From Bacteroidota bacterium (GTDB taxonomy: Bacteria > Bacteroidota > Bacteroidia > JAIBAJ01), in assembly GCA_947475205.1 (NCBI GenBank), contig CANJNG010000001.1:679-64678 (forward strand): DNA of 64,000 nucleotides, read 5' to 3'. Shown here in pieces: positions 7,024 to 54,540 of this stretch. The position numbers were made by a program, and so were the translations under genes. How positions within the stretch are numbered: position 1 is the stretch's first letter; each line of letters begins with the position of its first letter. The notes beneath the pieces were generated by a model. That model was not told the DNA's origin. It did not search any database and worked only from the letters and a program-made list of their open reading frames with translations.

Positions 7024-7030
7024 TTGGAGG

Positions 7031-9370
7031 TTACACCCGCACTCCCATCACCAAAATATCGTCTACTTGCACTTTATTGCCTTTAAACTCTTCGAGGTAG
7101 TTGCGAAGGAAGTTTCCCTGTTCAAACATGGGTGTATCTTGCATAGATAAAACAAGTTCTTTAAACCGCCGTTTGGTGAGTTTACGTTCGGGTTCGCCAC
7201 CAAACTGGTCGGCATAACCATCGCTGAACACATAAATGCTATCACCTTTTTCCAATTGAATGGTATGGTTTGTAAAAGGTAGCGAAGCATCATCGTATTT
7301 TCCAACCCCTTGATTATTCCCTTTTACTTCAATAAGCTCTCCTTTTCTTACAATCCAAAGTGGGTTGTTTGCTCCTGCCCATTGCAGCATATTGGTTTCT
7401 GGGTTAAACAGGCATAGCGAAGCATCCATCCCGTCGGAGATTTCATTTTCGCTTTTCGAGAAATTCTCTACCACTATCTCTGACACTTTATCTAATATTT
7501 TAGCTGGTTCGGTAATGCCAAATTCGCGTACCGCTCTGTTCAATGCATTATTGCACACCACCGAAACCATAGCCCCCGATACTCCGTGGCCTGTGCAGTC
7601 GCAGGCAGCGAACAATACAGATCCTTCCCAGCCACCAAGCCCCTCTCCATCTCTCCCCAAAGGGGAGAGGGCAAATGCCGTATCCTCGTTATGCGTTAGC
7701 CGCATTAACTCCTCCCCCTTTGGGGGAGGCTGGGAGGGGGCCTCCATCCAATAAAAATCCCCGGCAATAATATCTTTAGGCATATAAAGAACAAAGGAGT
7801 TTTGCAGATATTGCTTCACAATTTTGGTGGGTGGCAGTATGGCATTTTGTACCCGCAATGCACAGTTGATGGATTCGAGAATCTGAACGTTTTTGAATTC
7901 TACAATCTCTTTTTGGGTGATTACTTCTAAGCGTTGTTGTTCGATGGTATCGCGTTGCCGCAGGGTGATTTTGTATCGATTATAAACAAAAGCTATAAAA
8001 AGTGCGAGCACAATAAGCCCCACAATCAAGCCAATTCGGACGTTCTTTTGGTTTTTGATAACCAATTCCTGATTCTCTTTTTCTGTATTTAGTAGTTTTA
8101 TTTGTGCTTCCTTTTTTTCAGATTGATACTTCCCATCAAGTTCCTGAATTAGCTGAGCGTTGTTTTGCTGAGCTAGGCTATCGGTATAGTACACACAATC
8201 TTCATAATATTCATATGCCGCTTTGTAATCTCCGGCTTTATATTTTAAGGATGCTAAAGAACGCAGTGCATCGCACATCTTCACTAACCGCTTTTCCTCG
8301 TGGGTTTCGGCTATTTTAAGGGCAGTTTCGAGATATTCTCCCGCTTTGTCATATTGCTTCAATCGTCCATATATTTTGCCATAATATCGGTTAATGTTGA
8401 AATCAAATTGATTGATGTTATGCTCTTTCCCAATGGCTACCGCTTTATCTAAAAAGGATAAAGCCTTGGGAGAGTTATCGTCATAAATATAGAAATGGCT
8501 AAGGTTTACGATATACATAATCTGGCTAGCATAATCGTTTTGCTGTTCGGCAATTTGCACGGCTTTGGACAAATACTCTACTTCTTGGGCGTAGTTTTCC
8601 ATTTGCGAATACATATCTGCGGCCAGGGATAAGCCCTCGGCTTCGAGGCTCAAATCCTTAATTTCCTTAGCCAATCGTATCATTCTTTCATAGTATTCTA
8701 ACGATTGCTCATAGTTTTTTATGCGTTTGAACACCGAACCAACAAAATGCAGCAACTGCCCATAATCGGCTGTCATTATGTGATGCTTTTCATAAATATC
8801 TTGCGACTGCTGCATAAAATGCAAGGCAGTTGTATAGTCTTCCTTGTCGTAATAGTTTCGGCCTTTATCGCGAAGCAGCTTAGCTTCAAAGGCTATGTTT
8901 CCGGCCGGGAGATAGTCAAAAGCACTATCGTTATACATTAGGGCTTTTGAAGGCGAAAACTGAATTGCCCAACAGTGCGACATCAGGTAATAAAGCTCTG
9001 AAAGATATTTGGTGCTCTTAGTCTTTCGGGCTTCATCAATGCCGATTTGTATTGTAGGAAGAGCTTCTTCGGCCTGGTCAGCATCTAACCAGCCACGGCC
9101 AATTTTGAGGCAGCTGCGTTGTTTGTGATCTGAGTTCGTTTCTTTGGCAATATCGGCAAGCAGTTCCTGGGTTAAATGCTTTGCGGCCACCCTATCGGTA
9201 ATTACAAAATGGCGGAATATTCTGATTTTGGTGTTAATCCGTTCGGTATCGGATTTGGCTGCTGCAAGGGCTTTTTGAAGCGAATCGAGATTTGCTTTTT
9301 GGGAATAGGTTTTGGAATATCCCAAACAAAAGATGAGCAGGAAGCTCAAAACCCGAAATAAGTTTTTCAA
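7031..9370 (-). CDS. TPR-repeat sensor with a SpoIIE/PP2C-type serine phosphatase domain
   Basis: 779 aa. It has a signal peptide, multiple TPR-like repeats, one TM helix, and a C-terminal PP2C signature (GDFYW..., CDCTGHGVSGAMVS, FSDGYADQFGG). Confidence 0.8.
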   Translation of the reverse strand: MKNLFRVLSFLLIFCLGYSKTYSQKANLDSLQKALAAAKSDTERINTKIRIFRHFVITDRVAAKHLTQELLADIAKETNSDHKQRSCLKIGRGWLDADQAEEALPTIQIGIDEARKTKSTKYLSELYYLMSHCWAIQFSPSKALMYNDSAFDYLPAGNIAFEAKLLRDKGRNYYDKEDYTTALHFMQQSQDIYEKHHIMTADYGQLLHFVGSVFKRIKNYEQSLEYYERMIRLAKEIKDLSLEAEGLSLAADMYSQMENYAQEVEYLSKAVQIAEQQNDYASQIMYIVNLSHFYIYDDNSPKALSFLDKAVAIGKEHNINQFDFNINRYYGKIYGRLKQYDKAGEYLETALKIAETHEEKRLVKMCDALRSLASLKYKAGDYKAAYEYYEDCVYYTDSLAQQNNAQLIQELDGKYQSEKKEAQIKLLNTEKENQELVIKNQKNVRIGLIVGLIVLALFIAFVYNRYKITLRQRDTIEQQRLEVITQKEIVEFKNVQILESINCALRVQNAILPPTKIVKQYLQNSFVLYMPKDIIAGDFYWMEAPSQPPPKGEELMRLTHNEDTAFALSPLGRDGEGLGGWEGSVLFAACDCTGHGVSGAMVSVVCNNALNRAVREFGITEPAKILDKVSEIVVENFSKSENEISDGMDASLCLFNPETNMLQWAGANNPLWIVRKGELIEVKGNNQGVGKYDDASLPFTNHTIQLEKGDSIYVFSDGYADQFGGEPERKLTKRRFKELVLSMQDTPMFEQGNFLRNYLEEFKGNKVQVDDILVMGVRV

Positions 9371-9470
9371 AGCGTATATTTTGATGGCCGAAATTAATGC
9401 AATTTAAGAGCGAATGTTAAAATTCAGATGGAGGTAATTGTTCAATAAATTTCATTAGAAAGGAAAGCTA

Positions 9471-9511
9471 TACACAATATATTTATTGATAATCAATAAA
9501 TATATTGTGTA
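9471..9511. promoter_or_regulatory. perfect 41-bp palindrome (20-bp arms), candidate operator for the downstream XRE regulator
   Basis: TACACAATATATTTATTGAT-A-ATCAATAAATATATTGTGTA, with arms that are exact reverse complements. It lies in the divergent intergenic region, 39 bp upstream of the DUF2975 start. Confidence 0.5.
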
Positions 9512-9549
9512 ATTCAATGAATTCGATTTACATTTGCCGCCAATACTAA

Positions 9550-10338
9550 TTGTCATTTATGAAAAACTCATCACCCCTAAGCTTTATAAAAGGAATGTTT
9601 TGGTTCTTTCGGATTGGATTTTGGCTTCAATTGGTAATAATCTTTATTCAACTCTTTTTTAATTATGTAATGTATGACAGCGAGCAGGGTTTATACTTTA
9701 CAGTGCGGGGGAATATTTACGCCCATACTACACAGCCGCATCTTCCCAATTTACACCCTTTAGATTCAGTTATTCATAAAACACCCGCAACCTCCGTAAG
9801 TCGCAGCAAATATGGCGTAACAACATTGGATACAATTGGGAGCAAAACTATTTATATGTTCAACGGCCAGCAGTTTGGATTTTTGCGGGTTGATTACACT
9901 GAATTCACCAAGGCATTTACGGTTACAAATATGCTTTGGTTCTTGGCCGATATTTCATTTTTTCTGCTTTGGCTTATCATTACTTATCAGATTATGAAGA
10001 TACTTCAATCCATTAAGGATGAGGCTGTTTTTATTCAGCAGAATATAAAACGAATTACCTTCATCGGTTGGGCTTTTATTCTTATGACTTTTGTTGAAAT
10101 TGTAAAAGATCAGGTTTTTTTCTTAGTTGCAAAGCAGCACTTGCAGGATACAGGTCTTACCCTAATTTCAAATGTAAATTGGTATGATTTGGTTCCAATT
10201 TCATTGTATTCTGTTTCTTACGACACCATGAATCATTCCCGATTTCAAGGCATAGCTTTGGGCTTGATAATCCTGGTAATTGCTCAGATATTTAAAAACG
10301 GGTTTGAATTACAAAAAGAAAAGGACTTAACCATTTAA
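9550..10338 (+). CDS. DUF2975-like multi-pass membrane protein
   Basis: Hydrophobic protein with 4-5 TM helices. It sits 4 nt upstream of a short XRE HTH gene, which is the classic DUF2975/XRE pairing. The listed start may be too far upstream. Confidence 0.5.
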   Translation: MSFMKNSSPLSFIKGMFWFFRIGFWLQLVIIFIQLFFNYVMYDSEQGLYFTVRGNIYAHTTQPHLPNLHPLDSVIHKTPATSVSRSKYGVTTLDTIGSKTIYMFNGQQFGFLRVDYTEFTKAFTVTNMLWFLADISFFLLWLIITYQIMKILQSIKDEAVFIQQNIKRITFIGWAFILMTFVEIVKDQVFFLVAKQHLQDTGLTLISNVNWYDLVPISLYSVSYDTMNHSRFQGIALGLIILVIAQIFKNGFELQKEKDLTI

Positions 10339-10341
10339 GCT

Positions 10342-10548
10342 ATGCCTATAATTGTAAATCTTGATGTAATGATGGCGAAACGGAAAATGAGCCTTAATGA
10401 GCTATCTGAAAAAGTAGATATTACGCTATCTAATCTTTCCATTCTAAAAACAGGAAAAGCAAAAGCTATTCGTTTTAGTACGCTTGAAGCCCTTTGCAAA
10501 GCCTTAGACAGTCAGCCTTCGGATATTTTGGAATATAGGGAAGAGTGA
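10342..10548 (+). CDS. XRE-family (Cro/C1-type HTH) transcriptional regulator
   Basis: 68 aa. The MSLNELSEKVDITLSNLSILKTGKAKAIRFSTLEALCKAL sequence is a typical HTH_XRE. Confidence 0.85.
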   Translation: MPIIVNLDVMMAKRKMSLNELSEKVDITLSNLSILKTGKAKAIRFSTLEALCKALDSQPSDILEYREE

Positions 10549-10681
10549 TGCTGAAGGACATTATAGGTATGAAGACACGAAGCACCTCGAAACAGTCCCT
10601 ACAATTTATCCTCCAAGAAAGTAACAACAGCTATCTGTTCTATTTTGGAATTGGAAAGTAAGGCTAACTATACCATTGGCA

Positions 10682-11527
10682 TTACACAGCCACACCAAAA
10701 TCCCTCAAAGCGTCATTCAGCGATGTTTTGAGATCGGTAGAAGGTTTGCGTTTCCCAATTATCAAGGCACATGGCACTTGATATGTTCCGGCAGGAAACT
10801 CTTTTGTGTATGAACCGGGGATTACCACCGAGCGTTCCGGCACAAAACTTTTGTAATGAATGGGTTCTTCTTTTGTAACGTCAATTATTTTGGTGGAAGC
10901 AGTTAATACCACATTGGCTCCAAGTACGGCTTCCTTTCCAACCCTCACACCTTCTACCACAATGCAACGCGAACCGATAAAACAACCCTCTTCCACTATC
11001 ACCGGTGATGCCTGAACAGGCTCTAACACGCCACCAATTCCTACCCCTCCACTTAGATGTACGTTTTTTCCAATTTGGGCACAAGACCCTACTGTGGCCC
11101 AAGTGTCCACCATAGTTCCGCTATCTACATAGGCCCCAATATTGGTGTAAGAAGGCATTAATATTACGCCCGGAGCGAGGTAAGCTCCATAGCGAGCCAC
11201 AGCATGAGGCACTACTCTAACACCAAGTTTTGCGTAATCGGTTTTGAGTTGCATTTTGTCGTGAAACTCCATTGGGCCTGCCATCAACGTTTCCATTTTG
11301 CGAATACCAAAATACATCAGAACGGCTTTCTTCACCCATTCATTTACTTGCCAACCATCGGCAATGGGTTCTGCTACACGAAGTGTTCCGGCATCTAAAA
11401 GTGCTATGGCCGCTTCTATTGCTTGGCGGGTTTCGGGTGCTTCGAGAAGGATACGATTATCCCAAGCTTGTTCAATAAGGTTTTTCAATTTTGCTGATAA
11501 TATATTGCTTAGAGGTTTTTCGGTCAA
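10682..11527 (-). CDS. dapD: 2,3,4,5-tetrahydropyridine-2,6-dicarboxylate N-succinyltransferase
   Basis: 281 aa with hexapeptide-repeat (LbH) C-terminal region and a DapD-like N-terminus. Confidence 0.8.
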   Translation of the reverse strand: MTEKPLSNILSAKLKNLIEQAWDNRILLEAPETRQAIEAAIALLDAGTLRVAEPIADGWQVNEWVKKAVLMYFGIRKMETLMAGPMEFHDKMQLKTDYAKLGVRVVPHAVARYGAYLAPGVILMPSYTNIGAYVDSGTMVDTWATVGSCAQIGKNVHLSGGVGIGGVLEPVQASPVIVEEGCFIGSRCIVVEGVRVGKEAVLGANVVLTASTKIIDVTKEEPIHYKSFVPERSVVIPGSYTKEFPAGTYQVPCALIIGKRKPSTDLKTSLNDALRDFGVAV

Positions 11528-11529
11528 TT

Positions 11530-12699
11530 TTAATTCGCCTCAAATTTCTTTAGCGTTGCGTCCAAATCAGTGATGTCATCACCCGCTTTCTTGGCTAATT
11601 CAATAGCTTTTTTCTCCATTTCAATGGCCAAAACTTTGTTGGCTCTCTTCATCAGAATATTTGCATAAGTGTCTAAATTGTATTGATTTTCTTTAATTTC
11701 TACCGAACGTTTTGCCCAACGTTCTATTACAGCTAGTTGTTTATTGTTTGAGCTATTTTCAAAAATTGCCCAACTCACGTTATTTAAAAAATCAGCGTCT
11801 TGCCCTTTGTATCGATCCACTAAGTTTGAGGCTGCTCTGATATACTTTTCATAGTCCTTGCTCACTTCTGCCGATTCTAAATCTATCATAAAGTTTAGCT
11901 CATCTGCCCTTTCAAAGCCCGTGTTTACTATCTTTTCTTTGTAAAGGTCAATTTTTTCAACATTAGCATTTTCTTTGTGTGTAAGGGTGTTGGCTTCAGC
12001 TAAATACACATCATAAATCTTGGTGTTAACGCTATCGGCTGTATATTTTTCGCCAAATGCTTTTCGGGTTTTAACCAAATAGTCGAACACATTTGATTCG
12101 GTGGACGACAGGTAGCGTTTAATCACTTTCCAATTATCGGGCAATATTAAATCGTCTTCCTTTACAGCAGAAAAGTAGGTTTTAAGGGCTTCGTCGGTTG
12201 AAAGGCAACTTTCTGAAAGGGTTTTCAGATAATCTAAATTAAACTCAATAGTGTTTTTGCCTTTTTCAAATTGAGCTTTTCGGGAAGCGAAAGTTTTGGC
12301 AGGAGTTAAGGCTGTTTTACCAAGTTCGATAAACGCTTCCGGTTTGTGAAATCCTGCTGCCTGGTGCACTAATTTTCCTTCGCCATCAATAAATAGCAGG
12401 TTTGGGTAACAGCTTACCTGATACTCCTTGGCCAATTCAATTCCTTCACCTTTCTCCATATCTATCTTTACATTAATAAACTTTTCGTTAAAAAGCTTCA
12501 CAACCTCTGCATCGGCAAACGTATTCTTAGCCATTGCTTTGCACGGGCCGCACCAAGTGGTAAATGCATCCACAAAAATTAGTTTTCGTTTTGATTTGGC
12601 TTTTGCTTTAACCTCTGTCCAGGTTCCGGTTTCAAAGGTTATTTCTTGGGCATTTAGCGTTGAACCCCAAAAGGTTATTAACAGAAAAAGATATTTCAT
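11530..12699 (-). CDS. secreted thioredoxin-fold protein (WCGPC) with a C-terminal helical domain
   Basis: Signal peptide followed by the WCGPCK thioredoxin active site. Confidence 0.75.
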   Translation of the reverse strand: MKYLFLLITFWGSTLNAQEITFETGTWTEVKAKAKSKRKLIFVDAFTTWCGPCKAMAKNTFADAEVVKLFNEKFINVKIDMEKGEGIELAKEYQVSCYPNLLFIDGEGKLVHQAAGFHKPEAFIELGKTALTPAKTFASRKAQFEKGKNTIEFNLDYLKTLSESCLSTDEALKTYFSAVKEDDLILPDNWKVIKRYLSSTESNVFDYLVKTRKAFGEKYTADSVNTKIYDVYLAEANTLTHKENANVEKIDLYKEKIVNTGFERADELNFMIDLESAEVSKDYEKYIRAASNLVDRYKGQDADFLNNVSWAIFENSSNNKQLAVIERWAKRSVEIKENQYNLDTYANILMKRANKVLAIEMEKKAIELAKKAGDDITDLDATLKKFEAN

Positions 12700-12950
12700 T
12701 TTATGAATAAGTATGTTCGTGAGGGAGTAAAATTAGTGCAATATTGCATAGACATTGTTTGGGCAGACTACAATTTTTATTTCTCTTTCGGGTAATTGGT
12801 TAATTAAAGGCAACAATTTGCCTGATGCCGACCATTAGCAATGAAACTCAATTATCGTTGGGGATGAATGCCATTTCGCACAAAATATCTCCTTAAAAAC
12901 CTATCGCTAAACCATTACTTTTGCCACCGAAATTTTAAAACCTTAAACCA

Positions 12951-14090
12951 ATGCTTTTCGAACTTACCGAAGAACAAAAAATGATAAAACAGGCAGCACG
13001 CGATTTTGCCCAAAACGAGTTGTTGCCGGGCGTAATTGAGCGTGACGACAAGATGATATTCGCCAAAGATCAAATTAAGAAGATGGGCGAATTGGGGTTC
13101 TTGGGTTTAATGGTTGACCAAAAATATGGCGGCGCCGGAATGGATACCGTTTCTTATGTGTTGGCGATGGAAGAAATATCGAAAGTGGATAATTCCTGTT
13201 CGGTGTGTATGAGCGTGAACAATTCTTTGGTTTGCTGGGGTTTGGAAACCTACGGAACTGAAGAACAAAAGCAAAAATATTTAGTACCATTGGCCAAAGG
13301 CGAAATAATTGGTGCTTTTTGTCTTAGCGAACCCGAGGCTGGAAGCGATGCCACTTCGCAACGCACCACCGGACAAGACATGGGCGACCATTATCTAGTG
13401 AATGGAACCAAAAACTGGATTACCAACGGGGGCAAAGCATCGGTGTATTTGGTAATGGTGCAAACCAACCCCGAAAAAGGTTCAAAGGGCATCAACTGCC
13501 TAATTGTGGAGAAAGGACAGGAAGGCTTTATTGTGGGTGCTAAAGAAAACAAATTAGGCATTCGCTCTTCCGACACCCACACCCTAATGTTTCAGGATGT
13601 GAAAGTGCCGAAGGCTAATCGTATTGGTGATGACGGTTTCGGATTTACCTTCGCTATGAAAACCCTTGCTGGTGGACGTATCGGTATTGCGGCTCAAGCA
13701 TTGGGAATTGCCGCAGGTGCTTATGAATTAGCATTGGCTTATTCCAAGGAGCGGAAAGCCTTCGGGAAATTGATTAACGAACACCAGGCCATTAGTTTTA
13801 AATTGGCTGATATGGCTACCGAAATTGAAGCAGCCCGCCTGATGGTTTACAAAGCCGCCTGGCACAAAGACCAACATTTAGATTACACCCAAAGCGGAGC
13901 AATGGCCAAGCTTTATGCCTCGTCTGTGGCGATGAAACACACCGTGGAAGCAGTTCAAATTCACGGTGGATATGGTTTTGTGAAAGAATACCATGTGGAA
14001 CGGTTGATGCGTGATGCTAAAATCACTCAGATATATGAAGGCACTAGCGAGGTTCAGAAGATTGTAATTTCGAGAGGGCTTTTGAAATAA
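12951..14090 (+). CDS. acyl-CoA dehydrogenase (short/medium-chain type)
   Basis: 379 aa. Full-length ACAD signature including the C-terminal YEGTSEVQ motif. Confidence 0.9.
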   Translation: MLFELTEEQKMIKQAARDFAQNELLPGVIERDDKMIFAKDQIKKMGELGFLGLMVDQKYGGAGMDTVSYVLAMEEISKVDNSCSVCMSVNNSLVCWGLETYGTEEQKQKYLVPLAKGEIIGAFCLSEPEAGSDATSQRTTGQDMGDHYLVNGTKNWITNGGKASVYLVMVQTNPEKGSKGINCLIVEKGQEGFIVGAKENKLGIRSSDTHTLMFQDVKVPKANRIGDDGFGFTFAMKTLAGGRIGIAAQALGIAAGAYELALAYSKERKAFGKLINEHQAISFKLADMATEIEAARLMVYKAAWHKDQHLDYTQSGAMAKLYASSVAMKHTVEAVQIHGGYGFVKEYHVERLMRDAKITQIYEGTSEVQKIVISRGLLK

Positions 14091-14099
14091 TACTCCCCA

Positions 14100-14148
14100 A
14101 AAACAACAAGCCCCCTGCTTTTCTTAAAAGCAGGGGGCTTGTTGTTTC
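14100..14148. terminator. bidirectional rho-independent terminator between the convergent acd and bcp genes
   Basis: AACAACAAGCCCCCTGCTTTT-CTT-AAAAGCAGGGGGCTTGTTGTT. Long perfect stem with U-rich 3' ends on both strands. Confidence 0.7.
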
Positions 14149-14165
14149 CAGTAATCTATAAAACC

Positions 14166-14627
14166 TTAACCCAATGCAGCTAAGATTTGCTGAGTGTGGT
14201 TGCCTGTTTCCACTTTGGAAAATATTTTTTGAATAGCTCCGGTTTCGTCTATAACAAAAGTGTAGCGGTTCATTCCCATATATTTTCGCCCCATAAACTT
14301 TTTTTCGCCCCAAGTGCCATAAGCATTGGCCACCACTTTGTCCACATCTGAAATAAGGGGAAAAGGAAGTTGGTATTTGGTGATAAACTTTTGGTGCGAT
14401 TTTTCACCATCGGCACTTACCCCGAGCACCGCAAACCCTTTTTCAAGCAAGGCTTCGTAGTTGTCGCGAAGGTTGCACGATTCTGCTGTACAGCCGGGCG
14501 TGTCGTCTTTGGGGTAGAAATATAGAATTAGTTTTTTTTCTGCAAAATCAGACAATTTCACGGTGTTGCCATTTTGGTCTTTTGCTTCAAATTCAGGGGC
14601 TTTTTGCCCTTCGGTTAGTTCTGACAT
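14166..14627 (-). CDS. bcp: thioredoxin-dependent thiol peroxidase (peroxiredoxin Bcp)
   Basis: 153 aa with the PKDDTPGCTAESC active-site motif. Confidence 0.9.
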   Translation of the reverse strand: MSELTEGQKAPEFEAKDQNGNTVKLSDFAEKKLILYFYPKDDTPGCTAESCNLRDNYEALLEKGFAVLGVSADGEKSHQKFITKYQLPFPLISDVDKVVANAYGTWGEKKFMGRKYMGMNRYTFVIDETGAIQKIFSKVETGNHTQQILAALG

Positions 14628-14746
14628 TTTTTTTGAGGTTTAAATTAAGGCCTTTTTAGTGTTAGGGGCAAAAATATACACTGAAAACCATTCAGGGCAG
14701 GGAATGTTTATATTTAGAATTGCCAATCCCAATCTACATTAGTATC

Positions 14747-15307
14747 TCACCCATTAAACTGGTTCATCGTGTGATTTATCCCGATGCTGCAAAAGGCTTT
14801 CACGGCATCAGCGGCTTTAGTTACATGCTCGGTCAATAGTTTCTTTTCATCTGTATTCCATTTTCCTAAGACATATTCCACCTGTCTGCCTTGAGAAAAA
14901 TTGTTACCAACACCAAATCGCAGTCGAGGATAATTTGGTGTCATCAACAGTTCCTGAATACTTTTTAGTCCGTTGTGGCCGCCATCGCTTCCTTTGCCTT
15001 TTATGCGGATTGTGCCAAATGGCAAAGCAATGTCATCGGTAACTACCAAAAGATTTTCCAACGGAATCTTTTCAAAGTTCAACCAATATTGCACGGATTT
15101 TCCACTCAAATTCATATAGGTAGATGGTTTCAGGAGGATAAGCGTGCGGCCTTTTACTTTTATATTGCACACCGAACCCAACCGATCGTTTGCAAACCGC
15201 ACCCCTTCGGTATTGGCTAAATGTTCCAACACGGTAAACCCAATGTTATGACGGGTGTTTTCGTATTCTTCGCCTATGTTGCCCAGACCGGCTATAAGGT
15301 ATTTCAT
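14747..15307 (-). CDS. pth: peptidyl-tRNA hydrolase
   Basis: 186 aa. The MKYLIAGLGNIGEEYENTRHNIGF sequence is the Pth N-terminal signature. Confidence 0.9.
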   Translation of the reverse strand: MKYLIAGLGNIGEEYENTRHNIGFTVLEHLANTEGVRFANDRLGSVCNIKVKGRTLILLKPSTYMNLSGKSVQYWLNFEKIPLENLLVVTDDIALPFGTIRIKGKGSDGGHNGLKSIQELLMTPNYPRLRFGVGNNFSQGRQVEYVLGKWNTDEKKLLTEHVTKAADAVKAFCSIGINHTMNQFNG

Positions 15308-15323
15308 TGTTGGTCGTTTGTAC

Positions 15324-17000
15324 TTACTTATTTATCAACTTCAAAATTGCTTCCCGTTCCGCCACACGGGGTATTTGCTTTGTCAAGGCTGCTTTATACA
15401 TCGTTTGGGCTTTGGCCATTTCTTTGTTCCTAGTATAAAAATCTCCGGCTAACCAATAACTTTGATAGAGTTCGGGGTTAGTAGCAACTAATACTTCGGC
15501 TTCATTTTGAGAAAAATCGCCTCTGCCTCTCAGGTATGATTGCAATTTTAGTTTCAATTGATGAAAAGTCTGATAATCTTTAAATTCCTTAGATACCAAA
15601 AAAGTATCGGCTTCAATAGTAAGGCTATCCACCACGGCATTCGTATAGCTTCCAGTAGCGGGTTTATCAAAGATTTTCTTCAAATCATAACAAATATATT
15701 TACCCAACTGAAAGGGCTGGGTAGAAACCCAAACTAATTGTTGTTGCGGTTTAAAAATTACTGAATGATGACAAAGCAGTTGGTTGATTGCCTTTTCGTT
15801 TCCGTACCCGAAAAAAGCATCATTTAGTCCCTTTTGGCTCCGAAGAATAGCCGCCGTTTGGGTTTCATTTAGTTTAGGCTTTTGCGAAAGCAGTTCATTT
15901 ACCCGTTTAAACCTATAGGCTGATGTGGTGGCATTGGCTTCACTCATATTCAGCGTGTCCGAATTAAATTCAGGACTTTGGTAATGGTTGGAGCACACAA
16001 TTTTATTTTCCTTCGGATAAACAATAGCCGTTCGTTTTGGCGACTTTTCAATAATGGCCGTTTTACCGTCTGCCGCCGAACCTATCATTATGCTTTCGGC
16101 CACAAAAGTTTTTCGTTTTTGAGCAATGGCGAAAGCTTCGTCAATGGTTTGAGCAAATTGCAAAATCTCTCTTGCCAACAAAGAAATGGGTGTAGCCGCA
16201 TAGGTCGGGAAATTGCTTTTAGCGGCATTCAGCGTAACAGTTAGCCCTTTTTCATTCATTCCTGATGTTGCCCCGATAAATCCCCCCCAGGTAACGGTCA
16301 TAAATCCATAGCCCGAATAGGGACGGGTAAACATCACTATTTTGTCTTTGGCAAAATCATCGCCGGTATAAAAATCGAAGTTGCGACCAATTATCAATGA
16401 ACCGTCTTCCGATTTATCGCCCCAAACCGAAAAGGACGTGCAACCCACCACCAATCCCATTTCCTGCAAAGCGTGACCAATATCGTGAGCCGCATGATAG
16501 TTGAGATTTCGTTCGTAGTTGCTACCGATAAAGTTGAATTTGGGGGAGAAGGAGTGCGAAATCCCGAAAATCTCTTCCTGATAATCGAGCCGGACATAAT
16601 TGGGCATATTTCGATTAAACCACACCGTGAAGTATTTCAAAAACTTTAAATAATTTTCGCTGGGAATAAGGTTTTTGATACTGGAAACGAAATATTCTTC
16701 CTGATTTTGAACAAGTTCGGTGGCCAACTTTCCGTTTATTACACCACGTTCAAAGGGTTTACCTTCCACATACATTTCCCATACTCCGCTTGTGTTTTTC
16801 AGCAACCAGTTATTCCCAATCTTGAAATGATTATCTGAAACTACTTCCCGTTTCAAGTTTAGTGACGTTTGATCTTGAACAGCGGGAGGCGAGAATTTAA
16901 CTATAAATTGATAGTATGCTGTAAGAAGCAATATCAACACGAATAAAGGCAGAACAAGCCATTTCAGAAAGCCTTTCAGAAACTTTTTTAACACGGACAA
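15324..17000 (-). CDS. C45-family (acyl-CoA:6-APA acyltransferase-like) peptidase/hydrolase with a C-terminal TPR
   Basis: 558 aa with an N-terminal TM helix. GCTSFSVWGDKSEDGSLIIGRNFDF is the Ntn Cys nucleophile region of peptidase C45. Confidence 0.65.
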   Translation of the reverse strand: MSVLKKFLKGFLKWLVLPLFVLILLLTAYYQFIVKFSPPAVQDQTSLNLKREVVSDNHFKIGNNWLLKNTSGVWEMYVEGKPFERGVINGKLATELVQNQEEYFVSSIKNLIPSENYLKFLKYFTVWFNRNMPNYVRLDYQEEIFGISHSFSPKFNFIGSNYERNLNYHAAHDIGHALQEMGLVVGCTSFSVWGDKSEDGSLIIGRNFDFYTGDDFAKDKIVMFTRPYSGYGFMTVTWGGFIGATSGMNEKGLTVTLNAAKSNFPTYAATPISLLAREILQFAQTIDEAFAIAQKRKTFVAESIMIGSAADGKTAIIEKSPKRTAIVYPKENKIVCSNHYQSPEFNSDTLNMSEANATTSAYRFKRVNELLSQKPKLNETQTAAILRSQKGLNDAFFGYGNEKAINQLLCHHSVIFKPQQQLVWVSTQPFQLGKYICYDLKKIFDKPATGSYTNAVVDSLTIEADTFLVSKEFKDYQTFHQLKLKLQSYLRGRGDFSQNEAEVLVATNPELYQSYWLAGDFYTRNKEMAKAQTMYKAALTKQIPRVAEREAILKLINK

Positions 17001-17027
17001 AAGTAGGTGTTAGCCCAAAATGAGGTT

Positions 17028-17714
17028 CTAAAAAACCAAACCCAATTCTTTGATTTCGGTTTCGGCCTTTTCTTTCAAAATGCCACTGGCCATTTGATAC
17101 TTCAACACTAGTCTGTAACTGGAATAGGTAACCAAAGGGGCAATTAAAATGTCGATAGAGTAATGAACATGTTGAACTGCTAAGCAGCCCATAAGTATAA
17201 TGCTGCATATACCCGTGTAAAGCCTAAAATTGCGGGTAGAGGAAAACAAAAAAGTAATGGTAATTACTGCCGAATGTCCCGAAAAGAACAAATCGCGGCT
17301 GAGGATATTACTATTGGGAATAAGCACATTTACCATTGGGTCCACCATAGGAATATAACCTGCGGGAGGGTCTAATGGAGTTAAATAAATGGCCATACTC
17401 CTGAAAACATACATTAGCAAAAAAGTTTGCACACCAAGCACAAGCAATATAGGTTTATTTGCAAGCTGATATATAGCCATTACGAGGCATGAATATAAAA
17501 TTGTGAATACAATCCAAGATAAGTCAGCTGCAGGTATGATGTTTAGCAATGGGTCCGGAAGCACAATGCCCTGCCGTTTTTCGATATTTAAAATGAAAGA
17601 ACCATAAGTAAATAGAAACAACGTGAGTAAAGCAGTAGTGCCGATAGTTTGGCGGCGAAACTCGGGCATCGAAAGATGCGATTTCCAAATATTGCTTATT
17701 GACGAGGACGACAT
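17028..17714 (-). CDS. PAP2 (phosphatidic acid phosphatase type 2) family membrane protein
   Basis: 228-aa polytopic membrane protein. It carries PAP2 motifs 2 and 3 (SGHS...; HYSIDIL with His/Asp). Confidence 0.65.
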   Translation of the reverse strand: MSSSSISNIWKSHLSMPEFRRQTIGTTALLTLFLFTYGSFILNIEKRQGIVLPDPLLNIIPAADLSWIVFTILYSCLVMAIYQLANKPILLVLGVQTFLLMYVFRSMAIYLTPLDPPAGYIPMVDPMVNVLIPNSNILSRDLFFSGHSAVITITFLFSSTRNFRLYTGICSIILMGCLAVQHVHYSIDILIAPLVTYSSYRLVLKYQMASGILKEKAETEIKELGLVF

Positions 17715-18088
17715 TAAATACTAAACTGGCGGCAAAAGTAAAAAAATCTCGTACTCGAAAGATAACGATATTTCATTGGGGTTTTTACACCACACATGGA
17801 ATAAATCAGGGCCTTCGATTTCTACATCCAATGCCATTAAGTTAAAGAAAATGTCTGAGAAAATAGGCCGTTCATTGCGAGGTACTCGGAAGCAACCTGC
17901 GAAGCTGCTCTTGGATTCCATATAAAAACAAAATACTATTCCAAAATCTCTAACTGCATTTAGGTAGAGATTTTGGATGTAGCAATTGTTATTACCATCC
18001 AAGAGCTAAAGGTTGCTTCGGTGGAATACCACCTACCATTGACGTATTTTGCAAACACATAATTTACAATAAATTAAAAAATCATTTT

Positions 18089-18181
18089 CCTATGTGAACA
18101 TCTATGTGAACTATGTGCCTATGTCGTTCAAAAATATTAAAAACCACATAGAATCATAGAGAACATAGGGTTTCACATAGT
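18089..18181. promoter_or_regulatory. iteron-like dyad: 4 direct CTATGTG repeats plus 4 inverted CACATAG copies flanking an AT-rich spacer
   Basis: Direct CTATGTG/CTATGTC copies sit at 18090, 18102, 18111 and 18119. Inverted (CA)CATAG copies sit at 18145, 18154, 18163 and 18174. Spacing is 8-12 bp around the central TTCAAAAATATTAAAAAC. Confidence 0.45.
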
Positions 18182-18272
18182 TTTCTGTTCTAACGTCATT
18201 ACATATTGCTTTATTTGAAAAATATAGAAACTCGCAAAGACGCAACGTGAACGACGAAGTCCCCACCGAAGG

Positions 18273-18666
18273 TAATTAACGTGAGTTATGGATTAGATAT
18301 AGGAATTATCAGCCTAAATCCAGAGAATCTCCAAATGGCTTTGCCCCCGTAACCGACCACATGGAGCTCTTAGTTTCCTTAATATTCAAAACACTAAAAC
18401 TAAAAACTTCCCAGCAATAGCGGCGGACAAAGCGAAGCGTAAGCAAGTGCGATGTGGGCTTTGCCCGTCCGCGGTTTCCCCTTCGCCCCAAGGCGTTGGG
18501 GAAATTGCCTTGAACCTACCGAAGGGAGCTCACGTTTACGTAAAGTTTCCATGGTTTTTTGCTCACTTTTTGCCAAAACAAAAAGTGAGATAGGAGGAAA
18601 AATGAATTCAAGAAAAAGATAATCAACAAAATACAGGTTTTGCTAATCCATAACTCACGGTAATTA
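18273..18666. mobile_element. MITE-like non-coding element bounded by 24-bp terminal inverted repeats (23/24 identical)
   Basis: Left repeat at 18273-18296 is TAATTAACGTGAGTTATGGATTAG. The right repeat at 18643-18666 reverse-complements to TAATTACCGTGAGTTATGGATTAG. The ~350-bp interior is GC-rich, hairpin-rich and has no credible ORF. No clear target-site duplication was seen. Confidence 0.4.
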
Positions 18667-18708: not shown

Positions 18709-18744
18709 AAACAAAAAAGAGTCTCGGTAACCACACCGAGACTC
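18709..18744 (-). terminator. rho-independent terminator of the EEP-family gene
   Basis: On the minus strand, GAGTCTCGGT-GTGGTT-ACCGAGACTC followed by TTTTTTGT. Confidence 0.7.
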
Positions 18745-18845
18745 CCAAACCCAATGAAAAATAAACGATATTTTACTATCGAAGTAGTCTAACTACGTTT
18801 TGAAACAAGGGTTTCAAAAAAATGCGTTTTAGAAATTAATTCCGA

Positions 18846-19721
18846 TTAAAAACGTACTTCGGCCTCAACTGCATAATGGTCGCTAAGGTCTTTGTGTTTT
18901 CTATGCCATGGCGATTCAAAGATGCGAACTCGTCGAATGGTTTCCAGAATAGATTTACCATTGTCACGAATCAAGATATAATCAAGCACTTTTCGATTTT
19001 TGTTATCAGGTTCTAAATCGTTATTCCCATTTATGTCCTTAGTGTAACATATATCGCCGGAAAGCAATCCGTTTTGAGCTTTACAACAGGCTAACATACG
19101 GTTTTGGGCATTGGTGTCTAAATCAGAAAGGTTAAAATCTCCACATAGTAGCTGAGGAACTCCATCCTTTTTGTTGGGAATTACAAGTTTCTCTGACAAT
19201 TCGGCCACTTGGCGAAGCTTTAGTTCTTTATCGCCTGCCGCTTGAATGTGGGTTCCCAAAACTTGTATTTTTTGGCCATTCCAATCGGTTTCTACCATCA
19301 AAGCACCTTTGCGAGCCTGACAATCGGAAAATCCATAGCATTCAGTAAATTTAATGCTGCCTAATTTGGTAATAGGGGTTTTGCTCAAAATCCATACTCC
19401 ACTACTTGTTTTGAATGAGCCCGCAATACGATTGGCAGGACCGATAGCATAAGGATAAATACTTTTCAGGCCCTTCAATATTCGGCGTCTGGCACCGCTG
19501 TGAAAGGCTTCTTGGAAAACAATCATATCATAGCTTTCCTTTGTTAACACCTCGGCTATTTTATTTGCACGCGACATTTTTCCCGTAAACTTAATGAGAG
19601 GAGGAAGCATATAAATGTTCCAGGATAGCACCTTAAACGATTGGTTTAGGTGTACAGAAGGCTGAGAATAGCTATGCTGAAAAAGAATAATAGCAATTAG
19701 GAAGAGGAAGAGGTGTTTCAT
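18846..19721 (-). CDS. secreted endonuclease/exonuclease/phosphatase (EEP) family protein, sphingomyelinase-like
   Basis: 291 aa with a signal peptide. EEP motifs are present (LSWNIY..., VFQEA, GTHI, CGDFN, SDHYAV). Confidence 0.7.
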   Translation of the reverse strand: MKHLFLFLIAIILFQHSYSQPSVHLNQSFKVLSWNIYMLPPLIKFTGKMSRANKIAEVLTKESYDMIVFQEAFHSGARRRILKGLKSIYPYAIGPANRIAGSFKTSSGVWILSKTPITKLGSIKFTECYGFSDCQARKGALMVETDWNGQKIQVLGTHIQAAGDKELKLRQVAELSEKLVIPNKKDGVPQLLCGDFNLSDLDTNAQNRMLACCKAQNGLLSGDICYTKDINGNNDLEPDNKNRKVLDYILIRDNGKSILETIRRVRIFESPWHRKHKDLSDHYAVEAEVRF

Positions 19722-25130: not shown

Positions 25131-25385
25131 ATTCTTTTTTGGAGCAGAACCTTTGGCATTTCAAGCCAACGTTTGGGTCCCGCTATCCGTTCCAAGTCCG
25201 CCAGCCCCACAAGCCAAACCCACTTCGGGCTTTCCACTCCTATCGGGGCTAAACCGAAAGGACCGTATTTCAAACTAACGGTTGCTAAAATACCCTTCGG
25301 CGGCTTTAATTACCCTTACCCTTCTACTCACCCCCTTCAATACACTTCACAAGCTTATCGTCACTATACTCACGTCAATAACTAC

Positions 25386-25595
25386 GTTTCGCATGCCCAC
25401 CTCTACCGTACTCGCGTCCATCACGATGCTTCGCACATCTAACACTACGGTACTCACGACTATCACGATGCTTCGCACGTCTATCACTACTGTACTCGCG
25501 ACTATCACGATGCTTCGCACGTCTATCACTACTGTACTCGCGTCCATAACGATGCTTCGCACATCTATCACTACTGTACTCGAGTTCAACACTAC
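25386..25595. repeat. 42-bp tandem repeat, about 5 copies (consensus CTATCACGATGCTTCGCACGTCTATCACTACTGTACTCGCGA)
   Basis: Units at 25386, 25428, 25470, 25512 and 25554 with >90% identity between the middle copies. The array sits in a 660-bp non-coding, strand-asymmetric region that is C-rich on the top strand. Confidence 0.85.
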
Positions 25596-54051: not shown

Positions 54052-54540
54052 TCCCTAAGCCCGGAACCCTCTACGGTAAATGCTTGAGAGCATTCCCTGA
54101 TCCCCGAACCCCTTCAAGCAATTGCTTGAGAGCATTCCCTAATCCCTTAATCAGTTCAAGCAATTGCTTGAGAGCAATCCCTAAGCCCGGAACCCTCTCC
54201 GGCAAATGCTTGAGAGCAATCCCTAAGCCCGGAACCCTCTCCGGTAAATGCCTGAGAGCAATCCCTAAGCCCGGAACCCTCTCCGGCAAATGCCTGAGAG
54301 CATTCCCTAAGCCCGGAACCCTTTCCGACAAATGCCTGAGAGCATTCCCTAGGCCCGGAACCCTCTCCAGCAAATGCCTGAGAGCATTCCCTAATCCCGA
54401 AACCCTCTCCGGTAAATGCTTGAGAGCAATCCCTAAGTCCCGAACCCGTTCAAGTAAATGCTTGGAAGCATTCCCTAAGCCCCTAATCCGTTCACGCAAT
54501 TGCTTGAGAGCATTCCCTAGGTCCCGAACCCGTTCTAGCT
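54052..54540. repeat. 42-bp tandem repeat array, about 12 copies (consensus TCCCTAAGCCCGGAACCCTCTCCGGCAAATGCTTGAGAGCAA)
   Basis: Units lie head-to-tail every 42 bp from 54052, with point variants only and no intervening spacers. The last unit is degenerate. Both strands keep long open frames (152 and 164 aa) only because of the periodicity. Confidence 0.9.

What the first reader, a model, noticed from the sequence alone, without database searches (positions are those of the whole stretch)
18273..18666. MITE-like ~394 bp element with 24-bp terminal inverted repeats and a structured GC-rich interior
TAATTAACGTGAGTTATGGATTAG at the left end matches the reverse complement of the right end in 23 of 24 positions. 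The interior has no credible ORF but contains several strong local hairpins (GGGCTTTGCCC x2, TTTCCCC...GGGGAAA, CTCACTTTTTG...CAAAAAGTGAG). This is the signature of a non-autonomous transposable element or a structured-RNA gene captured between inverted repeats. It sits directly downstream of the EEP gene terminator.
Basis: seen in the sequence. Interest (0 to 1): 0.55.

Follow-up and report, generated by a model that had tools for sequence, protein, structure and literature searches.

The report
IS982-type miniature transposon (MITE) insertion
This is a short, gene-less relative of the IS982 family of bacterial jumping genes, sitting harmlessly between two genes of an uncultured Bacteroidota bacterium; it is an ordinary kind of element.

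Summary
The inverted repeat is real: 18273-18296 against 18643-18666, 23 of 24 positions, none in shuffles. Its anatomy needs correcting. The outer six bases, TAATTA, are a palindromic target-site duplication. The true terminal inverted repeats (TIRs) are 18 bp, ACGTGAGTTATGGATTAG, at 18279-18296 and 18643-18660.

This TIR fits the published IS982-family consensus AC(N)6T(N)5TT exactly. The 6-bp duplication lies in the family's 2-10 bp range. An exact-match scan of 185,579 species genomes found the same terminus at 14 loci, all in Bacteroidota. Four adjoin IS982-family transposase sequence. One is an intact 1,023-bp IS with a 304-aa transposase and a 7-bp duplication. Others are 201-289 bp gene-less elements with unrelated interiors.

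The window's 346-bp interior has no transposase remnant, Rfam match, Pfam match, protein homologue or Bacteroidota promoter motif. Its hairpins are equally strong on both strands.

It is best read as a non-autonomous IS982-type element (MITE) in a terminator-proximal spacer. Not shown: other copies of this interior, a cognate IS in the same genome, or a clean empty site. Assemblies read straight through it, which argues against a recent multi-copy burst. It is a new member of a known kind, of low interest.

The parts
18273..18278 (.). Left copy of the target-site duplication, TAATTA. Alternatively a 7-bp GTAATTA from 18272.
   Evidence: It is identical to 18661-18666. The exact direct repeat abutting both termini is 6 bp. 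Sister elements with the same TIR have 7-bp duplications TAATTTA, TAAGTTA and TAATCTA.
18279..18296 (+). Left terminal inverted repeat, ACGTGAGTTATGGATTAG
   Evidence: It fits the IS982-family consensus 5'-AC(N)6T(N)5TT (PMC7335449). The same 18-mer is the terminus of IS982 elements at L001, L009 and L014.
18297..18642 (.). Non-coding 346-bp interior. It has a roughly 50% G+C core and local palindromes at 18475-18504 and 18562-18589, plus GGCTTTGCCC at 18337 and 18457.
   Evidence: There is no Rfam match, no Pfam match and no protein homologue. tblastn with an IS982 transposase gave no match. It shows no similarity to the interiors of the other elements.
18643..18660 (-). Right terminal inverted repeat. 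Read inward it is CCGTGAGTTATGGATTAG, so the outermost base differs (C instead of A).
   Evidence: Five of 69 catalogued IS982 members also start with CC (PMC7335449).
18661..18666 (.). Right copy of the target-site duplication, TAATTA
18717..18746 (-). Context: terminator-like hairpin plus T-run downstream of the EEP gene, about 50 bp from the element
18846..19721 (-). Context: upstream neighbour, an endonuclease/exonuclease/phosphatase family gene (PF03372)
17028..17714 (-). Context: downstream neighbour, a PAP2_C-domain membrane protein gene. Its start lies about 560-600 bp from the element.
   Evidence: A TAnnTTTG motif at 17733-17740 (-) lies just upstream of the gene and well outside the element.

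Best explanation
This is a non-autonomous transposable element of the IS982 family, that is, a MITE. It is 382 bp long (18279-18660), with 18-bp terminal inverted repeats and no transposase gene. It is inserted at a TAATTA site that was duplicated on insertion. Shown here: the termini, the flanking direct repeat, the absence of any coding capacity, and the use of the same termini by genuine IS982-family insertion sequences and by multi-copy short elements in other Bacteroidota. Inferred: an IS982-type DDE transposase supplied in trans bound the two ACGTGAGTTATGGATTAG ends. It then moved the element into an AT-rich, near-palindromic target (TAA-N-TTA type) by staggered cleavage of 6-7 bp. At its present site, between a terminator and the next gene's promoter region, it is most likely neutral. 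It is probably a solitary or old copy rather than part of a recent burst.
For: 1. The TIR and duplication are real and not a chance match.
2. The TIR matches the IS982 consensus AC(N)6T(N)5TT at every fixed position. The 6-bp duplication lies in the family range of 2-10 bp; Bacteroidota-group members give 4-8 bp (PMC7335449).
3. An exact 21-mer scan of one genome per species returned 14 loci, by my own arithmetic about 0.5 expected by chance. All are in Bacteroidota.
4. L014 123-1145 is a 1,023-bp element with these TIRs and a 7-bp duplication TAATCTA. It carries a 304-aa ORF scoring 189 bits on NCBIfam 'IS982 family transposase' (cutoff 130) and hitting Pfam DDE_Tnp_1_3 at 1e-47.
5. Transposase homologues also adjoin the TIR at L001, L009 and L010.
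6. Gene-less elements of 201-289 bp share the TIR, and two have 7-bp duplications (L008, L013). L006, L007 and L008 come from one Chitinophagaceae genome assembled from a metagenome (MAG) and share their interior at 73-87% identity, so this TIR does support real MITE families.
7. The interior carries no coding or known RNA signal.
8. There is precedent for an IS982-derived MITE in Bacteroidota: MITECca01 from ISCca4 in Cardinium (PMC9769881).
Against: No second copy of this interior was found anywhere. That covers the 64-kb window, the 14 TIR loci, JGI metagenomes, plasmids, phages and viral contigs, and called proteins in any frame. No IS982 transposase lies in the window. Several independent assemblies, including MEGAHIT k=141 contigs, read straight through the 394 bp at 100% identity. 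By inference from how such assemblers work, this argues against another near-identical copy in the same genome. No clean empty site was found. The nearest EEP homologues are only 67% and 60% identical and are not syntenic. The 99.9%-identical strain variant L032 lacks the element, but it also lacks the whole EEP side. The outermost base of the right TIR deviates from all the other termini examined, so the copy may no longer be mobile.
Confidence: 0.85

Rival explanations
1. It is an in-situ deletion derivative. A full-length IS982-family element inserted here and later lost its transposase gene by internal deletion. That would leave a one-off remnant rather than a member of a mobilised MITE family.
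For: Only one copy of this interior is known. Assemblies traverse it without breaking. The TIRs and the duplication would be kept by such a deletion.
Against: The 346-bp interior has no detectable similarity to IS982 transposase genes. It also has none to the subterminal regions of the IS copies recovered. Its roughly 50% G+C core is unlike the AT-rich IS sequences seen. Short elements with unrelated interiors and the same TIRs are common in other genomes.
Confidence: 0.07
2. The GC-rich hairpin core is a structured non-coding RNA or other functional passenger. It is either carried by the element or closed by the long-range stem.
For: The core G+C is about 50%, against 33-40% in the surrounding spacer. 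The interior folds better than its shuffles, z about -3.9.
Against: No Rfam family matches inside the element, even at E up to 10. The fold excess is the same on both strands, as expected of DNA palindromes. There is no Bacteroidota -7 motif TAnnTTTG inside. No homologue is available, so no covariation test could be run.
Confidence: 0.05
3. It is an invertible DNA segment (inverton), flipped by a site-specific recombinase acting on the inverted repeats, as in Bacteroidales phase variation.
For: Inverted repeats of about 20 bp flanking a few hundred bases in an intergenic region of a Bacteroidota genome fit the general layout. This comparison rests on my own knowledge of invertons.
Against: All ten metagenome and MAG contigs carrying the region have it in one orientation at 100% identity. 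No integrase or resolvase family appears among the Pfam hits on record for the genes called within about 10 kb on either side. No promoter motif lies inside. The repeats are those of an IS982 element and are flanked by a direct repeat, which inversion sites do not need.
Confidence: 0.02

Closest known systems
MITECca01, derived from ISCca4 (IS982 family), in the Cardinium endosymbiont of Oedothorax gibbosus (PMC9769881)
   Same: Both are gene-less short elements in a Bacteroidota genome bounded by inverted repeats of an IS982-family insertion sequence. Both are presumed to be mobilised in trans.
   Different: MITECca01 is about 240 bp. It keeps short subterminal sequence of its parent and has spread to many copies alongside intact parents in the same genome. 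Here the element is 382 bp and its interior is unrelated to any recovered IS. Neither multiple copies nor a parent IS could be shown in the host.
IS1187 (Bacteroides fragilis) and ISPrsp2 (Parabacteroides), autonomous IS982-family members of the Bacteroidota group (PMC7335449)
   Same: The termini are of the AC(N)6T(N)5TT type. They give 7-bp direct repeats, as at three sister elements here; the window copy has 6 bp. Size and gene layout match the full-length relatives found at L014 (1,023 bp, 304 aa).
   Different: These carry a 324-326 aa DDE transposase, while the window element carries none. IS1187 is known for an outward promoter that activates cfiA (PMC9330008). No promoter motif was found in this element.
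Short elements with the same TIR in other Bacteroidota MAGs (L006/L007/L008 Chitinophagaceae, L011/L013 Saprospiraceae, L010 Cesiribacter)
   Same: They have identical or near-identical 18-bp termini and TA-flanked AT-rich duplications, and they are gene-less.
   Different: They are 201-289 bp, and each lineage has its own interior. None resembles the window's interior.

Membership tests
IS982 family (as a non-autonomous derivative) | Terminal inverted repeats with the conserved positions 5'-AC(N)6T(N)5TT-3' (PMC7335449) | tested here: met
   The left TIR ACGTGAGTTATGGATTAG has A1 C2, T9, T15 and T16. The right TIR is the same except that it starts with CC, as do 5 of 69 catalogued members.
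IS982 family (as a non-autonomous derivative) | Direct repeat of 2-10 bp generated on insertion | tested here: met
   TAATTA abuts both termini. Sister elements have 7-bp repeats.
IS982 family (as a non-autonomous derivative) | The same termini bound an element encoding an IS982-type DDE transposase | tested here: met
   The L014 ORF scores 189 bits on NF033520 (cutoff 130) and hits PF13612. Transposase sequence also lies next to the TIR at L001, L009 and L010.
IS982 family (autonomous member) | About 1 kb in length with one transposase gene of about 240-326 aa | tested here: not met
   The element is 382 bp. The longest ORFs lying within it are 60 aa or less and have no homologues. It is therefore not an IS itself.
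MITE | Short, TIR-bounded, flanked by a target-site duplication, with no transposase | tested here: met
MITE | Several copies of the same element in the host genome | tested here: inconclusive
   Only 64 kb of the host is available, and it holds one copy. No other copy was found in any collection searched. Assemblies traversing the element argue against near-identical copies.
MITE | A cognate autonomous IS in the same genome to supply transposase | not testable with these tools
   There is none in the window, and the rest of the genome could not be read.
MITE | Presence/absence (empty-site) polymorphism among relatives | tested here: inconclusive
   All same-population contigs carry it. The nearest other EEP genes are not syntenic. 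The L032 variant lacks it but is rearranged at this point.
Invertible promoter segment (inverton) | Both orientations present in a population, a recombinase nearby, and a promoter inside | tested here: not met
   All ten contigs show one orientation. No recombinase family is on record for the genes called nearby. There is no TAnnTTTG inside.
Any Rfam RNA family | A covariance-model match | tested here: not met
   No match lies inside 18273-18666 at the gathering score or at E up to 10.

The most novel reading that the evidence does not exclude
The unusually GC-rich, hairpin-dense core of the interior (about 18420-18540) might be a functional passenger, such as a small structured RNA or a protein-binding module, moved around by IS982-type termini. 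Alternatively, the element might take part in the strain-level rearrangement whose breakpoint lies about 15 bp from its left end.
Probability: 0.05. Interest if true: 0.5.

Novelty: new member of a known kind. Interest (0 to 1): 0.2.

Why it matters
The practical value is modest. First, it gives a precise annotation for a piece of intergenic DNA that gene callers leave blank. Second, it shows that the terminus ACGTGAGTTATGGATTAG is shared by IS982-type insertion sequences and many unrelated miniature elements across several lineages of Bacteroidota. That makes the 18-mer a convenient probe for finding them. Third, it flags this spacer as a hot spot. A second, unrelated 143-bp MITE sits 73 bp away in a 99.9%-identical strain, and a rearrangement breakpoint lies next to the element. 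This helps to explain why metagenome contigs often end here. Nothing suggests a new mechanism.

Tried and rejected
- Rfam at gathering and permissive thresholds, and tRNA/tmRNA search: nothing inside the element.
- JGI metagenome scan with a 24-mer from the interior, and with both TIR cores 331-361 nt apart: no match in either. The host organism seems absent from that collection, because even the locus itself was not found.
- Viral contigs with the 18-mer, and blastn of the element against plasmids and phages: nothing.
- A six-frame concatenate of all stop-free stretches of the element against 5.8 billion proteins, hoping for ORFs called in sibling copies: nothing at E up to 0.01. Pfam at E up to 10 gave nothing meaningful.
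- An empty-site test through the neighbouring EEP gene failed. The next relatives are 67% and 60% identical and sit among different neighbours.
- Literature search for the TIR string: no paper holds it.
- Bacteroidota promoter motif TAnnTTTG: no match inside the element. A generic sigma-70 scan gave no more sites than shuffles did.
- A 21-nt similarity between the left flank and the interior (18262-18282 against 18515-18535, 76%) was considered as a sign of nesting. I set it aside as probably chance.
- A model with TA as part of the TIR and a 3-bp duplication fits the three sister elements but not the window copy (AAT against ATT). I therefore prefer the AC-terminus model with a 6-7 bp duplication.

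Full report
**Observation**

The arms 18273-18296 and 18643-18666 pair at 23 of 24 positions with 346 nt between them. None of 100 dinucleotide-preserving shuffles of the window gave a single match to the 24-mer at up to three mismatches. No other inverted repeat of this kind occurs in the 64 kb.

The interior alone folds more stably than its shuffles, z = -3.9 on the + strand and -3.7 on the - strand. That symmetry is what DNA palindromes give and is not evidence for a strand-specific RNA.

The longest start-to-stop ORFs lying within the element are 60 aa or less. The element lies about 50 bp beyond a terminator-like hairpin at 18717-18746 (- strand). That hairpin follows the endonuclease/exonuclease/phosphatase (EEP) gene at 18846-19721. 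The next gene, a PAP2_C-domain protein at 17028-17714, starts about 560-600 bp further on.

The window is a chromosomal stretch of an uncultured Bacteroidota bacterium. It carries housekeeping genes and a Flavo-1 RNA at 25172-25254.

**Related sequences**

An exact-match scan of one genome per species (185,579 species) with TTAMCGTGAGTTATGGATTAG returned 14 loci, where by my own arithmetic about 0.5 was expected by chance. All are Bacteroidota: Chitinophagaceae, Saprospiraceae, Lentimicrobiaceae, Spirosomataceae, Cesiribacter and unclassified Bacteroidia. Several come from the same metagenome-assembled genome (MAG).

Looking for the partner arm gave seven complete elements, counting the window's. 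Two are about 1 kb.
- L014 123-1145 is 1,023 bp. It carries a 304-aa ORF that scores 189 bits on NCBIfam NF033520 'IS982 family transposase' (cutoff 130) and 1e-47 on Pfam DDE_Tnp_1_3.
- L010 3610-4715 holds a disrupted homologue.

Transposase sequence also adjoins the terminus at L001 and L009, where the contigs end. The other elements are 201-289 bp and gene-less. L006, L007 and L008 come from one Chitinophagaceae MAG and share their interior at 73-87% identity. L011 and L013 come from one Saprospiraceae MAG and share their first 62 nt at 98%. This terminus therefore serves both autonomous IS982 elements and real multi-copy miniature derivatives.

**Corrected anatomy**

In the three best-preserved sister elements, the seven bases outside ACGTGAG...CTCACGT are identical on the two sides: TAATTTA at L008, TAAGTTA at L013 and TAATCTA at L014. 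These are target-site duplications. They place the element's ends at AC.

Applied to the window, this gives the following layout.
- The TIRs are 18279-18296 (ACGTGAGTTATGGATTAG) and 18643-18660.
- They match at 17 of 18 positions. The one difference is the outermost base of the right end, C instead of A when read inward.
- Each is flanked by TAATTA, at 18273-18278 and 18661-18666.

TAATTA is its own reverse complement, so the duplication looks like six more bases of inverted repeat. A 7-bp reading (GTAATTA, with the right end one base short) is equally possible.

The observed duplications suggest a preference for AT-rich, near-palindromic TAA-N-TTA targets. Three older-looking elements keep only the flanking TA.

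**Comparison with the family definition**

The review 'IS982 and kin' (PMC7335449) gives these features for the family:
- length 845-1,282 bp with one transposase gene;
- 57 of 69 members starting with AC and 5 with CC;
- direct repeats of 2-10 bp, with 4-8 bp in members from the Bacteroidota group (IS1187 7, ISPrsp2 7, ISCca4 6).

The window's TIR has every fixed position of that consensus, and its duplication of 6 bp is in range. It lacks the transposase, so it is not an IS but a non-autonomous derivative.

A direct precedent exists in the same phylum. MITECca01 is a roughly 240-bp element derived from the IS982-family ISCca4 in Cardinium (PMC9769881).

**The interior**

The interior has no similarity to the transposase or to the subterminal parts of the recovered IS copies. 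It has none to the interiors of the other short elements, or to anything else in the window. No Rfam family matches it even at E up to 10. No Pfam family matches in any frame. A six-frame concatenate found no homologue among 5.8 billion proteins. The Bacteroidota -7 promoter motif TAnnTTTG is absent from it.

Its core is about 50% G+C in a spacer of 33-40%. With no homologue, covariation could not be tested. The RNA reading cannot be excluded outright, but nothing supports it.

**What could not be shown**

- Related TIRs elsewhere and a cognate IS family: clearly found.
- Multiple copies of this element: not found in the window, the 14 loci, JGI metagenomes, plasmids, phages or viral contigs.
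- An empty site: not found.

Ten contigs from ENA, Logan and NCBI assemblies of the same population carry the region at 100% identity and in one orientation. Six span the whole element, and four end inside it. Several of the spanning contigs are MEGAHIT k=141 contigs that run straight through it. By inference from how such assemblers behave, another near-identical copy in that genome is unlikely. The single orientation also speaks against an invertible segment.

The nearest other EEP genes are 67% and 60% identical and sit in different neighbourhoods. A classical empty-site comparison was therefore impossible.

**A strain variant**

Looking up the PAP2_C protein uncovered a 26-kb contig (L027/L032, sample ERZ27263780). 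It is 99.9% identical to window 7028-18209 and then departs. It differs in two ways.
- It carries an unrelated 143-bp MITE with TIR CGCACTCGTCCCTTTGGATACAG and an 8-bp duplication ATATGTAA. The window has the uninterrupted site at 18199-18206.
- After a diverged copy of a roughly 45-bp unit, it continues into a 1,186-aa gene and a SurA-like gene. The window has the IS982-type element and EEP there instead.

Similarity to the window fades around 18255-18260, about 15 bp from the duplication. In the same sample, the EEP-side contig stops 42 nt inside the element. This is a strain-level rearrangement next to the element, not a clean empty site. I could not resolve how it arose. The intact duplication argues that the element itself was not the recombination point.

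**Mechanism and verdict**

The shown facts are:
- IS982-type termini and a flanking duplication;
- no coding capacity;
- the same termini on autonomous IS982 elements and on multi-copy miniature elements in related bacteria.

The inferred steps are that an IS982-type DDE transposase supplied in trans bound the two ends and inserted the element at a TAATTA site with a 6-7 bp staggered cut. The copy is now a neutral and probably solitary resident of a terminator-proximal spacer. Its mobility may be impaired by the changed terminal base.

Confidence that it is an IS982-type non-autonomous element is about 0.85. It is a new member of a known kind, and interest is low.

Noticed in passing
window 18090-18180: An imperfect hairpin (39-nt arms, 74% complementary) is built of repeated CTATGTG/CACATAG units, 93 bp left of the element. 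A 99.9%-identical strain (L027 2482-2580) has one extra CACATAGG unit. Four metagenome contigs end in or just beside it (18104, 18152, 18193 twice). The same AACCACATAG / CTATGTGGTT motif lies subterminally in the Chitinophagaceae MITEs L006 and L007.
   Followed up: partly
L027 2313-2455 (= L032 7426-7568); empty site at window 18199-18206: A second, unrelated 143-bp MITE is present in a sister strain and absent from the window. It has a 23-bp TIR CGCACTCGTCCCTTTGGATACAG and an 8-bp duplication ATATGTAA. This is a clean presence/absence polymorphism 73 bp from the IS982-type element. Its TIR was not found elsewhere in the window or in the fetched loci.
   Followed up: partly
L032 1-7570 against window 18210 onwards: There is a strain-level rearrangement. 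A contig 99.9% identical to window 7028-18209 continues into a 1,186-aa gene, a SurA-like PPIase and a HAD phosphatase, where the window has the MITE, EEP and an ABC transporter. The junction region holds two diverged copies of a roughly 45-bp unit (TTGCGAG..ATATTTTTCAAATAAAG) that occurs once in the window at 18199-18240.
   Followed up: partly
L016/L017 and L020/L022 contig ends (window 18314 and 18522): Contigs coming from the EEP side stop inside the element. One assembly and its MAG stop at element position 42. Two Logan runs stop at position 250. The repeated break points suggest population variants or graph branches inside the element. The cause is unexplained.
   Followed up: no
window 25172-25254 (- strand): A Flavo-1 RNA (RF01705) scores 46.3 bits against a gathering score of 42. 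It is the only Rfam match in the window and supports a Bacteroidota origin.
   Followed up: no
window 25403-25582 and 54052-54531: There are two 42-bp tandem arrays, of 4.3 copies at 91% matches and 11.4 copies at 84% matches. The first lies inside a 108-aa repetitive ORF just beside the Flavo-1 RNA.
   Followed up: no
L001, L010, L014 (TIRs and transposases): The 18-bp terminus is identical or nearly so across lineages, although the associated IS982 transposases are only 40-44% identical to one another. The exact-match search biases this observation, but the partner arms, which the search did not constrain, are also near-identical.
   Followed up: no
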